Virus record (IMG/VR): IMGVR_UViG_2531839531_000004
Location: 1-35,498 of that record
Length of the DNA: 35,498 nt
Origin: a virus
Lineage: Duplodnaviria; Heunggongvirae; Uroviricota; Caudoviricetes
Reading direction: 5' to 3' (one strand)
In this document: one piece after another, positions 9,628 to 15,316 of the stretch
Layout: each line of letters starts with the position of its first letter
Position numbering within the stretch: position 1 is the stretch's first letter
Translations under genes and position numbers: made by a program
Notes under the pieces: model-generated
The model's database searches: none
Told to the model about the DNA's origin: nothing
What the model saw: only the letters and a program-made list of their open reading frames with translations

Positions 9628-11240
9628 ATGAGTCAGAAATACCTCATTCGCATCGCTGAGCTGGAAAGGCTGCTCTCTGAGCAGGCTGAAGCCCTCCGTC
9701 AGAAAGACCAGCAACTGAGTCTGGTTGAAGAGACGGAGGCCTTCCTGCGCTCTGCACTGGCACGTGCCGAAGAAAAGATCGAAGAAGATGAGCGAGAAAT
9801 AGAGCATCTGCGGGCTCAGATAGAAAAACTGCGCCGGATGCTGTTTGGAACCCGTTCTGAAAAACTGCGTCGTGAGGTTGAACAGGCTGAAGCCCTGCTG
9901 AAACAACGCGAGCAGGAAAGCGATCGTTACAGTGGGCGTGAGGATGACCCGCTGGTTCCCCGCCAGTTGCGACAGTCGCGCCATCGTCGTCCGTTACCGG
10001 CACATCTCCCCCGTGAAATATACCGCCTGGAGCCTGAAGAAAGCTGTTGCCCGGAGTGTGGCGGTGAGCTGGATTATCTGGGGGAAGTCAGCGCAGAACA
10101 ACTGGAACTGGTGAGCAGCGCCCTGAAAGTGATCCGCACAGAACGGGTAAAAAAGCCTGTACAAAATGTGACTGCATCGTTGAAGCACCGGCGCCGTCCC
10201 GCCCGATAGAGCGTGGTATCGCGGGCCCCGGATTACTTGCCCGCGTGTTAACGGGAAAATACTGCGAACACCTGCCACTGTATCGTCAGAGTGAAATCTT
10301 TGCCCGACAGGGTGTCGAACTGAGCCGTGCATTACTCTCCAACTGGGTTGACGCGTGCTGCCAGTTAATGACGCCGCTGAATGATGCCCTGTACCGTTAT
10401 GTGATGAATACCCGCAAGCTTCACACTGACGACACACCGGTAAAGGTACTGGCACCGGGCCTGAAAAAGACGAAAACAGGGCGCATCTGGACGTATGTCC
10501 GGGATGATCGCAATGCGGGTTCGTCATCTCCTCCGGCGGTCTGGTTCGCGTACTCATCGAACCGGCAGGGGAAACACCCGGAGCAACACCTCCGCCCCTT
10601 CCGGGGTATCCTGCAGGCGGATGCGTTCACAGGTTATGACAGGCTGTTCAGTGCAGAACGTGAAGGTAGTGCGCTGACAGAAGTTGCGTGCTGGGCTCAT
10701 GCCCGGAGAAAAATCCACGATGTATACATCAGCAGCAAAAGTGCGACGGCAGAAGAAGCCCTGAAGCGAATCAGTGAACTGTACGCCATCGAGGATGAAA
10801 TACGGGGATTACCAGAGTCAGAACGTCTTGCAGCCAGGCAGCAGCGAAGCAAAGCGTTACTGACGTCGCTGCATGAATGGATGGTGGAGAAGAATGGCAC
10901 GCTGTCGAAAAAATCCAGACTGGGCGAAGCGTTCAGCTATGTACTGAATCAGTGGGACGCCCTCTGTTATTACAGTGATGACGGTCTGGCGGAGGTGGAC
11001 AATAACACAGCGGAAAGAGCGCTTCGTGCAGTCTGTCTCGGAAAGAAAAATTACGTGTTCTTCGGTAGCGATCACGGCGGCGAGCGTGGAGCACTGCTGT
11101 ACGGGCTGATCGGCACCTGCCGTCTGAACGGTATCGATCCGGAAGCGTATCTGCGCCATATTCTGAGCGTACTGCCGGAATGGCCCTCCAACCGTGTTGA
11201 CGAACTCCTGCCATGGAACGTAGTACTCACCAATAAATAA
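9628..11240 (+). pseudogene. tnpC: IS66-family transposase TnpC, split by a 1-bp frameshift at an A-run
   Basis: ORFs 9628-10209 and 10245-11240 together cover a full TnpC. In the -1 frame from the A6 run at 10149-10154 the sequence reads [49 protein letters not shown], aligning with copy 1 (...[46 protein letters not shown]). Confidence 0.8.
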
Positions 11241-12488: not shown

Positions 12489-12851
12489 GTGAATACCTAC
12501 AGCATCACATTACCCTGGCCTCCGAGCAATAACCGCTACTACCGGCATAATCGCGGGCGCACGCACATCAGCGCAGAAGGGCAGGCATACCGCGATAACG
12601 TCACCCGAATCATTAAAAACGCAATGCTGGATATCGGCCTGGCTATGCCAGTGAAAATCCGTATTGAGTGCCACATGCCGGATCGCCGTCGCCGTGACCT
12701 GGATAATCTGCAAAAAGCCGCTTTTGACGCACTCACCAAAGCAGGTTTCTGGCTGGATGATGCTCAGGTCGTTGATTACCGCGTTGTGAAGATGCCTGTT
12801 ACCAAAGGTGGGAGGCTGGAACTGACCATCACCGAAATGGGGAATGAATGA
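12489..12851 (+). CDS. rusA: RusA Holliday-junction resolvase
   Basis: 120-aa product (GTG start) matching E. coli DLP12 RusA ([26 protein letters not shown]...[11 protein letters not shown]). Confidence 0.92.
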
Positions 12852-12988
12852 TGTTTGAGTTTTATATGGCAGAACTTCTTCGCCACCGCTGGGGGCATCT
12901 GCGCTTATATCGTTTCCCCGGTTCTGTTTTGACCGATTACCGAATACTGAAGAATTACGCCAAAACCCTGACAGGAGCAGGAGTATGA
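12848..12988 (+). CDS. ylcG: YlcG-like small protein (46 aa)
   Basis: ATG at 12848 overlaps the rusA stop (ATGATG). Product [46 protein letters not shown]. Not in the ORF track (below 60 aa), found by manual translation. Confidence 0.6.
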
Positions 12989-13073
12989 AGTCAGAGATAA
13001 CAATCAACTAATACTGTTTTGTTGATTTTTGCTTGTAATTGGCGTTCTGGTCTGATTTTTGTGGAGTAAGTTG

Positions 13074-13457
13074 ATGCGTGATATTCAGATGGTTCTTGAG
13101 CGTTGGGGAGCGTGGGCGGCTAATAATCATGAAGATGTGACCTGGTCGTCCATTGCCGCCGGTTTTAAGGGATTAATTACTTCAAAAGTAAAATCTCGCC
13201 CGCAATGTTGTGACGATGACGCGATGATCATTTGCGGGTGCATGGCCCGTCTGAAAAAGAACAACAGCGATTTGCACGATTTATTAGTAGATTATTATGT
13301 AGTCGGTATGACATTCATGTCACTGGCAGGTAAGCATTGCTGCTCTGATGGTTATATCGGGAAAAGGTTACAGAAGGCTGAGGGCATAATTGAAGGGATG
13401 TTAATGGCATTAGATATCCGGTTAGAGATGGATATCGTTGTTAATAACTCTAATTAA
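13074..13457 (+). CDS. quuD: Late-gene antiterminator Q (QuuD / phage-21-like type)
   Basis: 127 aa from ATG 13074 ([26 protein letters not shown]...), matching DLP12 QuuD as I recall it. The track ORF start at 13059 is a TTG. Confidence 0.85.
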
Positions 13458-13480
13458 TACGCCAATTATTTACTAAAAGT

Positions 13481-13508
13481 TATTAAAAATGGGGCGTTGA
13501 AACGCCCC
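13481..13508 (-). terminator. Intrinsic terminator-like hairpin downstream of the porin gene
   Basis: Stem GGGGCG (13491-13496) / CGCCCC (13503-13508) with a 6-nt loop; on the minus strand it is followed by AUUUUUAAUA. Lies about 140 bp past the porin stop. Confidence 0.5.
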
Positions 13509-13548
13509 CAAAAATAAAGGGTAATATATAACAGAAGGTTTGTATAGT

Positions 13549-13637
13549 TAGAAGCAAGGTTGTGCTTCTAAAGGAAGTGGCTTGAGGGAGCCACTTATAT
13601 GTTGGGGAGGCAAAGCCTCCCACAACATATCTTTTAG
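13549..13637. repeat. Cluster of three further inverted-repeat hairpins in the Q-porin convergent spacer
   Basis: AGAAGCA/TGCTTCT (13549-13568); AGTGGCT/AGCCACT (13575-13594); ATATGTTGGGGAGGC / GCCTCCCACAACATAT (13597-13630, one bulge) followed by CTTTTAG on the plus strand. Confidence 0.5.
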
Positions 13638-13645
13638 TAATCAAA

Positions 13646-14728
13646 TTAGAACTGGTAAACCATACCTACAGCAACGATATCATCGGTAGCAACGCCAGAT
13701 GCTTTCGTGAAATCGCTCTTATCAATCAGGTTGATTTTGTAGTCAACAAAAGTGGACATATCTTTGTTGAAGTAATAGGTTGCACCTACATCAACATATT
13801 CAACCAGGTCCTGATCACCCCAAACACCCAAGTCTTTTCCTTTAGAATGCAGGTAAGCAACGGATGGACGCAGGCCGAAGTCGAACTGATATTGTGCAAC
13901 AGCTTCGAAGTTTTGTGCTTTGTTGGCAATATGGTTATTACCAAAAACAGTCATGTTCTGGGTTTCAGAATAGGTGGTGGCCAGATAGATGTTGTTCGCA
14001 TCATATTTCAGACCAGCTGCCCATACTTCAGCATTTTGACCAGAAGCATTCAGACCGTTGTTACCGTAGATAACCTGATTATTAGTGCGATCAGATTTAG
14101 CATAGGTTGCACCCACGCCGAATCCTTCATACTCATAAGTAGTTGAGAAACCGAAACCATCGCCATTAGCTTCAGTTACTTCATTTCGGTCATTTTTGCC
14201 CTGATACTGAGCTGCAAAGTTCAGGCCATCAACCAGACCAAAGAAGTCGTTGTTACGATAAGTTGCAACACCTGTGGTGCGACCAGTCATGAATACATCT
14301 GTTTGGGTCCAGGTATCGCCACCGAATTCTGGCAGAACGTCAGTCCACGCACCGATGTCGTATGCTACACCGTAGTTACGGCCGTAATCGATTGAGCCGT
14401 AGTCACCGAATTTCAGGCCTGCAAATGCAAGACGGGTTTTGTCTTTGGAGGAACCTTGAGATTCAGCGCGGTTGCCTTTGAATTCATATTCCCACTGACC
14501 GAAACCAGTCAGTTGATCGTTGATTTGGGTTTCACCTTTGAAGCCAAGACGGGCATAAGTAGTATCACCATCATCTGCATCATTAGAGGAGAAGTAGTGC
14601 TTAGCATTAACTTTCCCGTACAGATCCAGCTTGTTACTGTCTTTATTATAAATTTCAGCTGCCTGAGCAGACATCGCCATCAGTACTGATGCAGCTACAG
14701 CAGAAATTGCCACTGTTAATTTTTTCAT
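13646..14728 (-). CDS. nmpC: Outer-membrane general porin, NmpC/Lc (OmpC/PhoE family), intact
   Basis: 360-aa product with signal peptide ([23 protein letters not shown]), beta-barrel porin pattern and C-terminal ...VGMVYQF. Matches E. coli NmpC as I recall it. AT-rich upstream region 14729-15270. Confidence 0.92.
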
Positions 14729-15316
14729 CGTGAGCCCTTTTTTTTGAACTATTATTAAAAAATGATGTCACTGCGCGATAAATATTCATCTAATCAATGT
14801 GATTATTTCAAGATGTAAGTTTTAGTTTCTCATTTAATTTGTGAAGTAGATCTCTATTTTTATCTGAACTTTTTCTATCGAAACCTATTTATGGCTCTTA
14901 TTTGAACAAAAATAAACCTATTAGCTAATTTATATTAATGGCTGTTATTTATGGGGGTTCTATAATTCGGCAGTTTAATTTAAATCAACTAAAAATAACC
15001 TCTGAAATTATTTATTGGTTATTTGTTGAGGTTTTCTTATGTATTTGTGGTGGTGTTTTGAACACTCGGTAGCATTCTCATAAATATCATTCAGTGGTTT
15101 ACGTACGTAAAAAATTGGTTATGCTGTTAAGAGTGGTTACTTCGTCACACAGCTTAAACCCGCCGTCGAGCTGGTTTTTCCATTTTTTGAGTCTCGATAT
15201 TAGCTGATAACTCAATACCTGAGTTATTCACTGACTCCGAGTCTGTTACGTTTCTGCTTTTTTGCGATACGTTGTATTCCCTCAATTTACACCCGCTTTG
15301 TCTGCGAGGTGGGGTT

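What the first reader, a model, noticed from the sequence alone, without database searches (positions are those of the whole stretch)
13481..13637. Four consecutive hairpins packed into the 188-bp Q-porin convergent spacer
Four separate inverted repeats (6-15 bp stems) lie between two convergent genes. Only the first has a clear U-run on the porin strand, and the last has a CTTTT tail on the Q strand. This density exceeds what a single terminator needs. It may be a bidirectional termination zone, a Q-utilisation/pause region, or a processed small RNA analogous to lambda 6S RNA.
Basis: seen in the sequence. Interest (0 to 1): 0.35.

Follow-up and report, generated by a model that had tools for sequence, protein, structure and literature searches.

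The report
IpeX small RNA behind phage porin
The four hairpins are the untranslated tail of a prophage porin gene, read on the porin strand: this is the already described small RNA IpeX, which shuts down the host porins OmpC and OmpF, and its conserved unpaired stretch turns out to be antisense to their ribosome-binding sites.

Summary
Four strong hairpins fill the 188-bp spacer between a QuuD-type Q gene and a convergent nmpC/lc-type porin gene (fold z about -9 on both strands).

The block belongs to the porin, not to Q. It is 96% identical to K-12 ipeX (NC_000913.3 574365-574531, 167 nt), a known sRNA made from the porin 3'UTR, and maps to window 13483-13648 on the minus strand.

The same four-hairpin tail follows mobile porin genes with no Q beside them: P1/P7 plasmid prophages, IncI/IncF plasmids and an E. 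fergusonii chromosomal copy. It is absent after chromosomal ompD. All four stems show compensatory changes (25 of 39 pairs; 0 of 500 shuffles). Wobble pairs and the U-run favour the porin strand.

The Q-dependent late promoter and short leader, the true 6S/StxS analogue, lie elsewhere, at about 15097-15185.

One possibly new point: the conserved unpaired linker forms 15 contiguous base pairs with the ompC Shine-Dalgarno region. In P7-type copies it forms 17 with the ompF SD-AUG region and shares a MicF 12-mer. This suggests plain antisense repression, although the original report, as I recall it, found no complementarity.

Verdict: a known element. The mechanism is testable.

The parts
13483..13648 (-). 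IpeX sRNA / 3'UTR of the porin mRNA (166 nt, from the porin stop codon to the end of the terminator U-run)
   Evidence: 160/167 identical to K-12 ipeX, NC_000913.3 574365-574531 R (coordinates from PMC8313858 suppl. 1; mapping). The covariance model R1 hits window 13480-13648 (-) at 183 bits.
13597..13630 (-). H4: long hairpin (15 bp plus a bulge, 3-nt loop) starting 16 nt after the porin stop codon
   Evidence: -24.4 kcal/mol on the porin strand, z -5.6. 10 of 15 pairs show a change on both sides across lineages. The stem sequence is entirely different in P7, IncI/F, L219 and L225, but the hairpin is kept.
13575..13596 (-). H3: 8-bp hairpin whose 6-nt loop CCCUCA (13583-13588) is invariant in all lineages
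   Evidence: 3 of 8 pairs compensatory; 95.7% of cells paired. The loop is unpaired with P=0.999. The loop is complementary to UGAGGG in the ompF SD and in the ompC leader.
13548..13571 (-). H2: 9-bp hairpin, variable in sequence and missing in one lineage (L219)
   Evidence: 9 of 9 pairs with a change on both sides.
13509..13547 (-). Conserved unpaired linker. The proposed antisense seed is 13526-13540, AACCUUCUGUUAUAU (IpeX nt 109-123). The adjacent UAUUACCCUUUAUU runs to about 13513.
   Evidence: Unpaired in the MFE structure. It is the most conserved non-stem segment. It forms 15 contiguous bp with ompC -21..-7 and 10 bp with ompF -14..-5. The two-helix duplex with ompC -33..-3 is -25.2 kcal/mol. 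It overlaps the experimentally derived 'likely-functional region' nt 128-142.
13485..13508 (-). H1 plus U-run: intrinsic terminator of the porin/IpeX transcript
   Evidence: Terminator scan; fold, (-13.9 kcal/mol). Stem covariation is seen in 3 of 7 pairs. A U-run on the porin strand is present in all lineages but L219.
13646..14728 (-). Porin gene (nmpC/lc/OmpD type, 360 aa) whose transcript carries IpeX
   Evidence: Pfam Porin_1, E 2e-151. Annotated as OmpC/OmpD/NmpC in identical phage and E. coli records.
13059..13457 (+). Q antiterminator (QuuD / 933W-Q family). It is a neighbour, not part of the element. Its last 7 codons lie beyond the homology break.
   Evidence: Pfam PF06530, E 4e-53. 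78% identical to 933W-type Q up to residue 125.
15097..15185 (+). Homologue of the pR' late promoter, initial transcribed region and tR'. This is the real counterpart of lambda 6S / StxS in this prophage and is not part of the finding.

Best explanation
The four hairpins are the 3' untranslated region of the prophage porin gene (nmpC/lc type), read on the minus strand. This is the known small RNA IpeX. Transcription starts at the porin promoter, runs through the porin gene, and stops at H1, the only hairpin with a U-run on that strand. The roughly 166-nt tail (H4-H3-H2-linker-H1) is reported to be released by processing. It represses the resident host porins OmpC and OmpF after transcription, so a cell that expresses the mobile porin makes less of its own. 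Proposed mechanism (inferred here, not shown): the conserved unpaired linker between H2 and H1 is an antisense seed. In DLP12/PA-2-type, IncI/F and E. fergusonii copies it pairs with the Shine-Dalgarno region of ompC. In P1/P7-type copies and one lambdoid lineage it pairs with the SD-AUG region of ompF, using a MicF-like UUAUUUAUUACC. This pairing would block ribosome binding. The invariant H3 loop CCCUCA may add a second contact with UGAGGG in the same leaders. H4, H3 and H2 would mainly act as a structured, nuclease-resistant scaffold that keeps the seed single-stranded. H4 may also stop Q-strand read-through in the lambdoid setting. My confidence is about 0.95 that this is ipeX and about 0.6 that it acts by direct linker pairing.
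For: Identity: the interval is 160/167 identical to K-12 ipeX and begins exactly at the porin stop codon. [quoted passage not shown]

Linkage to the porin, not to Q: the same architecture sits 3' of porin genes beside ssb in P7 and P1-like plasmids, beside an HTH gene on IncI/IncF plasmids, beside trkH in E. fergusonii, and near a Mu-like transposase. It is absent after chromosomal ompD of Salmonella, Citrobacter and Enterobacter, and the model finds nothing there.

Structure: 92.8% of cells are paired against 39-50% when partners are slid. 25 of 39 pairs have changes on both sides, with 0/500 shuffles reaching this, and every helix has compensatory pairs.

Strand: the U-run follows H1 only on the porin strand. 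There are 43 G-U cells against 19 A-C cells.

Pairing: 15 contiguous bp with ompC -21..-7 in five lineages, and 17 bp with ompF -14..+3 in three lineages. Accessibility-corrected energies for the window copy are ompC -14.1, ompF -13.7, ompA -7.2 and its own porin leader -5.1 kcal/mol. Shuffle tests give window-ompC z -2.7 (2/120), IncI-ompC z -4.0 (0/120) and P1-like-ompF z -4.1 (0/120), while window-ompA is not significant. The plus-strand copy of the linker reads like an inverted ompC leader. An in vivo accessibility study places the likely functional region at nt 128-142, inside this linker.
Against: As I recall its abstract, the original paper reported no complementarity between ipeX and the ompC leader. 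I could not read it here. [quoted passage not shown] The window-ompF pairing is not better than shuffles (z -1.0). The 15-nt ompC site is predicted to be largely paired in the isolated leader (P unpaired about 0). Three diverged lineages (L219, L225, L222) give only -5 to -10 kcal/mol after the accessibility correction. A helix-length statistic that allows G-U pairs did not separate ompC from ompA. The covariation alignment was fitted to the model structure, and many rows are close relatives. No expression data were available for this window.
Confidence: 0.85

Rival explanations
1. The hairpins are only a structured 3' end. They form a multi-hairpin terminator and stabiliser that protects the abundant porin mRNA from 3'-to-5' exonucleases, with no trans-acting role.
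For: H1 is a canonical terminator. H2 varies freely and is missing in L219, as expected for a purely structural spacer. Stable 3' hairpins are a known mRNA-stabilising device (established knowledge).
Against: The best-conserved parts are unpaired: the H3 loop and the linker. Those parts are complementary to ompC/ompF ribosome-binding sites. The literature reports repression of OmpC/OmpF by ipeX. Chromosomal ompD genes manage with a single short terminator.
Confidence: 0.08
2. The spacer is a bidirectional termination and insulation zone between convergent genes. H1 stops porin transcription before Q, and H4 plus its T-run stops Q-strand read-through before the porin gene.
For: H1 has a U-run on the porin strand. 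H4 is very stable on the plus strand (-22.3 kcal/mol) and is followed by CTTTT. A T-run after H4 is present in Q-adjacent copies (window, K-12, L222, L225) and absent in P7, IncI/F, E. fergusonii and L219 copies. A K-12 study concluded that transcription from the quuD side does not reach IS5 in nmpC, 'most likely due to intrinsic terminators'.
Against: The window's H4 tail has only 4 T and fails the terminator scan. Termination does not explain H2, H3, the invariant loop or the conserved linker. The block is conserved where there is no convergent gene of this kind. This can only be an added role, not the main one.
Confidence: 0.25
3. The spacer is a Q-utilisation site and a short pR' leader RNA, the 6S/StxS analogue, made on the Q strand.
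For: It lies immediately downstream of Q, as pR' does in lambda, and the last hairpin has a T tail on that strand.
Against: No promoter-like site lies in the spacer. The homologue of the annotated pR'/tR' of 933W-type phages is at 15097-15185. The hairpins occur without Q in P7, plasmids and E. fergusonii. Wobble pairs favour the other strand.
Confidence: 0.02
4. The spacer encodes a small protein: the 53-aa minus-strand ORF at 13483-13644, or the plus-strand 'ORF1'/'hypothetical protein' annotated in PA-2 and 434B.
For: A mechanical ORF exists, and old or automatic annotations mark ORFs here.
Against: Substitutions are paired across stems rather than following codon positions. Indels and whole-stem replacements between lineages destroy any reading frame. 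No start context was seen.
Confidence: 0.01

Closest known systems
IpeX sRNA of cryptic prophage DLP12 (qsr') and phage PA-2 (Castillo-Keller, Vuong & Misra 2006, J Bacteriol 188:576)
   Same: Same locus, between the nmpC/lc stop codon and its terminator. Same strand. 96% identical to the K-12 copy and the same length. PA-2 and 434B carry the same sequence.
   Different: Nothing essential. In this window the porin gene is intact, so IpeX can be made from the porin promoter. In K-12 an IS5 separates them.
MicF and MicC (chromosomal antisense sRNAs against ompF and ompC)
   Same: The predicted mode of action is the same: pairing across the SD/AUG of ompF or ompC. P7-type linkers share the 12-mer UUAUUUAUUACC with MicF.
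   Different: IpeX is not homologous overall, and Rfam gives no MicF/MicC match. It is not an independent gene: it is embedded in the 3'UTR of a mobile porin mRNA. It is reported as Hfq-independent for ompC (and my memory of the 2006 abstract).
3'UTR-derived sRNAs of enterobacteria (for example CpxQ, SroC, MicL, DapZ)
   Same: It shares its terminator with the parent mRNA, is released from the mRNA 3' end, and has a seed just upstream of the terminator hairpin.
   Different: It is carried by phages and plasmids rather than core genes. It is unusually long and structured, with three hairpins upstream of the seed.
Lambda 6S RNA / StxS (short pR' leader ending at tR')
   Same: A small RNA of the Q-S region of lambdoid phages.
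   Different: Different strand, promoter and position. The true homologue in this window is at 15097-15185.

Membership tests
IpeX sRNA | Lies between the stop codon of an nmpC/lc-type porin gene and its Rho-independent terminator, on the porin strand | tested here: met
   The porin stop is at 13646-13648. The terminator H1 plus U-run is at 13485-13508 on the minus strand.
IpeX sRNA | Sequence homology to K-12 ipeX (NC_000913.3 574365-574531, 167 nt) | tested here: met
   160/167 identical over window 13483-13648.
IpeX sRNA | Made as part of the porin transcript and processed to a roughly 167-nt RNA | not testable with these tools
   Only sequence is available. There is no promoter-like site inside the 3'UTR. 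The porin gene is intact here.
IpeX sRNA | Represses OmpC and OmpF but not OmpA | tested here: inconclusive
   Computation only. The best accessible duplexes fall on the ompC and ompF ribosome-binding sites (-14.1 and -13.7 kcal/mol) against -7.2 for ompA. The shuffle test supports ompC (z -2.7) but not ompF for this copy.
pR' leader / lambda 6S-like RNA with Q-utilisation site | A promoter directly downstream of Q on the Q strand, with a Q-binding/pause region and a tR' terminator | tested here: not met
   No promoter-like site lies in 13458-13645. The homologue of the annotated pR'/tR' of phages with a 78%-identical Q lies at 15097-15185.
pR' leader / lambda 6S-like RNA with Q-utilisation site | Travels with the Q gene | tested here: not met
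   The hairpin block is found with porin genes lacking Q. 933W-type phages with this Q family lack the block.
Intrinsic (Rho-independent) terminator | A GC-rich hairpin immediately followed by a U-run on the transcribed strand | tested here: met
   H1 on the minus strand meets this. H4 on the plus strand is inconclusive: it has a strong stem but only CUUUU.
MicF / MicC | Homology to the Rfam families; an independent gene divergent from a porin gene | tested here: not met
   No Rfam match, even at E up to 10. The element is a 3'UTR. Only a 12-nt seed is shared with MicF, in P7-type copies.
REP/BIME-type dispersed extragenic palindromes | Many dispersed copies per genome, independent of a particular gene | tested here: not met
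   There are 1 to 3 places per E. coli genome. In every record listed or inspected the match lies next to a porin gene or a porin-gene remnant.

The most novel reading that the evidence does not exclude
IpeX is a modular antisense cassette that rides in the 3'UTR of mobile porin genes on lambdoid phages, P1/P7 plasmid prophages and IncI/IncF conjugative plasmids. Its single-stranded linker looks like an inverted copy of a porin leader. The linker pairs directly with the ribosome-binding site of the host's ompC or ompF, and different lineages are tuned to one or the other. An incoming porin gene would thus replace the resident porins by simple MicC/MicF-like mimicry. This contradicts the standing view that IpeX acts without complementarity.
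Probability: 0.55. Interest if true: 0.5.

Novelty: already known. Interest (0 to 1): 0.3.

Why it matters
The element itself is known, so the finding adds no new kind of system. It still matters in three modest ways.

First, it shows that a dense hairpin cluster beside a phage Q gene should not be assumed to be late-gene control.

Second, the IpeX tail is a conserved, covarying module on at least five kinds of mobile or island contexts, and it occurs in about half of complete E. coli genomes (2504 of 5426). Porin replacement by incoming elements may therefore be common, with consequences for phage receptors and antibiotic permeability.

Third, it offers a concrete test for the unresolved IpeX mechanism: linker nt 109-123 pairing with ompC -21..-7, and the MicF-like seed pairing with ompF.

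Tried and rejected
Rfam has no family for this RNA. There was nothing at gathering scores, and only chance-level matches (traJ_5, AniS and others, E above 1) at relaxed thresholds.

The search for related loci in viral contigs returned only porins 98-100% identical to the query. They were useful for counts but not for diversity.

MAFFT alignments misregister H4 in diverged lineages. RNAalifold on them therefore recovered only H3 cleanly. A covariance-model alignment was used instead.

RNAduplex on full-length RNAs gave meaningless end-to-end duplexes.

The longest-helix statistic with G-U allowed did not discriminate: a G-U-rich 15-bp match of H4 to ompA scored like the ompC match. Windowed energies with accessibility, and shuffles, replaced it. 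One shuffle run timed out.

The original IpeX paper could not be opened. Primer supplements of another paper were not held.

Readings considered and rejected: qut/6S-like leader, REP element, small ORF.

Full report
**Context.** The window carries a DLP12/PA-2-type lambdoid prophage segment. The genes are rusA (12489-12851), ylcG (12848-12988), a QuuD-type Q antiterminator (13059-13457, +; Pfam PF06530, E 4e-53), a convergent porin gene (13646-14728, -; Porin_1, E 2e-151), then holin, lysozyme and Rz. Identical or near-identical DNA occurs in 2504 of 5426 complete E. coli genomes. It also occurs in phages such as ev243, PhiR70_1, 434B and PA-2.

The Q-porin spacer is 13458-13645, 188 bp.
- It contains four inverted repeats: H1 13491-13508, H2 13548-13571, H3 13575-13596 and H4 13597-13630.
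- Both strands fold far better than dinucleotide shuffles (z -9.1 and -8.7; 0 of 200 shuffles).
- H1 followed by AUUUUU is the only terminator-like site called in the spacer, and it is on the porin strand.
- H4 is followed by CUUUU on the Q strand.

**The block travels with the porin gene, not with Q.**
- Phage P7, a P1-like plasmid prophage, has an nmpC gene beside ssb. Its 3' flank has the same four hairpins in the same order, with different stem sequences. Related P1-like plasmids are the same.
- IncI-gamma/K1 and IncF conjugative plasmids carry an OmpC-like porin beside an HTH gene, with the same architecture.
- So do an E. fergusonii chromosomal porin beside trkH, a copy near a Mu-like transposase, and two further lambdoid lineages.
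- Chromosomal ompD of Salmonella, Citrobacter and Enterobacter, and a small-plasmid ompD copy, encode 75-81% identical porins. They have only a short 3'UTR with one terminator.
- A covariance model built from 12 diverse copies finds the element in every mobile copy and in none of those ompD loci. It hits window 13480-13648 on the minus strand at 183 bits.

**It is the known sRNA IpeX.** I recalled IpeX (Castillo-Keller, Vuong & Misra 2006) from the gene order and then tested the recall.
- A supplementary table gives the mature K-12 transcript as NC_000913.3 574365-574531, reverse strand, 167 nt (PMC8313858). That interval starts at the nmpC stop codon.
- It aligns to window 13483-13648 (-) with 160 of 167 identities.
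[quoted passage not shown] One source calls it Hfq-independent.
- The original paper is not held in the library. Details attributed to it are from memory. These are: no complementarity to the ompC leader was found, and the ompC effect is Hfq-independent while the ompF effect is not.
- Rfam has no model for IpeX, which explains the empty Rfam scans.

**Structure and strand.** The counts below come from the model-guided alignment, which has 32 distinct rows.

| Measure | Result |
|---|---|
| Cells forming standard pairs | 92.8% |
| Same, with 3' partners slid | 39-50% |
| Pairs with changes on both sides | 25 of 39 |
| Shuffles reaching any measure | 0 of 500 |
| H4 compensatory pairs | 10 of 15 |
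| H3 compensatory pairs | 3 of 8 |
| H2 compensatory pairs | 9 of 9 |
| H1 compensatory pairs | 3 of 7 |

- The alignment was fitted to the model structure, and many rows are related, so these numbers lean towards the structure.
- RNAalifold on an independent MAFFT alignment confirms H3, with three compensatory pairs.
- The raw sequences show H4 and H2 replaced wholesale by other hairpins at the same positions.
- G-U cells outnumber A-C cells 43 to 19. A-C cells would be wobble pairs on the Q strand.
- Together with the U-run after H1 and the linkage to the porin gene, this points to the porin-sense RNA as the functional molecule.
- The conserved non-stem parts are the H3 loop CCCUCA, invariant in all 12 lineage representatives, and the linker between H2 and H1.

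**Where the Q-dependent signals really are.**
- The Q protein is 78% identical to 933W-type Q up to residue 125. Homology then stops, about 13433.
- In 933W-type phages the annotated pR' promoter overlaps the end of Q and is followed by a short leader and tR'.
- The homologue of that promoter-leader-terminator unit lies in the window at about 15097-15185, between the porin start and the holin gene. Its tR' stem is weakened.
- The porin cassette, roughly 13434-15096, therefore sits between Q and pR'. The four hairpins lie inside the cassette. This disposes of the Q-utilisation and 6S-like readings.

**Mechanism (inference).** I fetched the real K-12 leaders.
- The linker segment AACCUUCUGUUAUAU (IpeX nt 109-123; window 13526-13540) forms 15 contiguous pairs, 14 Watson-Crick and one G-U, with ompC -21..-7. 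That stretch contains the Shine-Dalgarno sequence. The match holds in the window, ST80, E. fergusonii, IncI and IncF copies.
- With the adjacent CCCUUUAUU pairing to ompC -33..-25, the duplex is -25.2 kcal/mol.
- P7, P1-like and L225 copies instead form 17 contiguous pairs with ompF -14..+3, through UGUUAUUUAUUACCUUU. This contains the MicF 12-mer UUAUUUAUUACC.
- After charging for opening both RNAs, the window copy scores -14.1 (ompC), -13.7 (ompF), -7.2 (ompA) and -5.1 (its own porin leader) kcal/mol. In every lineage the best ompC or ompF site is the ribosome-binding region.
- Against dinucleotide shuffles: window-ompC z -2.7 (2/120), IncI-ompC z -4.0 (0/120), P1-like-ompF z -4.1 (0/120). 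Window-ompF (z -1.0) and window-ompA (z +0.4) are not significant.
- The H3 loop is complementary to UGAGGG. That hexamer forms the ompF SD and also occurs upstream in the ompC leader.
- Read on the plus strand, the linker looks like an inverted ompC leader with a short insertion that creates the ompF match. This suggests it arose by inverted duplication of a porin leader.
- The experimentally derived likely functional region, nt 128-142, lies in the same linker.
- A long uninterrupted ompC duplex and a shorter, interrupted ompF duplex would fit the reported Hfq independence for ompC only (from memory).

**Caveats.**
- The ompC site is predicted to be paired within its own leader.
- Some diverged copies score weakly after the accessibility correction.
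- The original authors are recalled as finding no complementarity.
- I put direct antisense pairing at about 0.6.

**Side role.** H4 is very stable on the Q strand too. A T-run follows it only in Q-adjacent copies. A K-12 study inferred terminators between quuD and nmpC. H4 may therefore also stop Q-strand read-through. This is untested.

**Verdict.** The added value here is threefold: the conserved four-hairpin architecture across phage and plasmid porin cassettes, the relocation of pR' to 15097-15185, and a specific, testable base-pairing model for IpeX.

Noticed in passing
window 15097-15185 (+): Homologue of the pR' late promoter, conserved initial transcribed region (AAGAGTGGTTAC) and tR' of 933W-type Stx phages. 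It lies between the porin start and the holin gene. Its tR' stem is weakened relative to the Stx-phage version and does not fold better than shuffles.
   Followed up: partly
window about 13433-13457 and about 15090-15097: These are the apparent junctions of a porin cassette of about 1.66 kb inserted between Q and pR'. Q homology to 933W-type Q stops after RLEMD (residue 125). The last 7 codons and the stop come from the cassette side, so this Q is about 12-18 residues shorter at its C-terminus.
   Followed up: partly
window 13511-13540 (+); L002 2480-2535; L123 2515-2565: Read on the plus strand, the linker resembles an inverted copy of the ompC leader (AAATAAAGG....ATATAACAGAgGGTT), with a short insertion that creates an ompF-like GGGTAATAtATAA. 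The P7 copy also resembles the ompC start (AATAACATGAA-GTTAAA). This suggests the seed arose by inverted duplication of a porin leader.
   Followed up: partly
L238 (UTI89), L123, L124: In UTI89 and on IncI/IncF plasmids the gene facing the porin 3'UTR is an HTH (ybcM-like/AraC-type) regulator instead of Q. It may be part of a larger mobile porin module.
   Followed up: no
L208/L209 (E. fergusonii chromosome): Two porin genes lie in tandem upstream of trkH. The second carries the full IpeX-type 3'UTR. The nature of this island was not examined.
   Followed up: no
L002 (P7) H4 versus window 14757-14775: The interior of the P7 H4 (AGGGAGUGAUGUCACUGC) is complementary over 18 bp to the nmpC 5' leader of the window (-46..-29). 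It lies inside a stable hairpin and may be chance or palindrome-related.
   Followed up: no
window 9994-11240: ORFs resembling an IS66-family transposase (for example 10245-11240, +) lie upstream of the nin-region genes. This suggests an IS insertion in the prophage. The identification is from the translation only.
   Followed up: no
window 13483-13644 (-); L003 180-389; L001 3200-4608: A mechanical 53-aa ORF overlaps the hairpins. So do the old or automatic annotations 'ORF1' in PA-2 and 'hypothetical protein' in 434B and other phages. These are probably spurious calls over the IpeX RNA.
   Followed up: partly
L232 (K-12 MG1655, NC_000913.3 574365-574531): The RefSeq record held here does not annotate ipeX as an ncRNA, and Rfam has no family for it. 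Automated pipelines therefore leave this region blank in thousands of genomes and phage records.
   Followed up: yes
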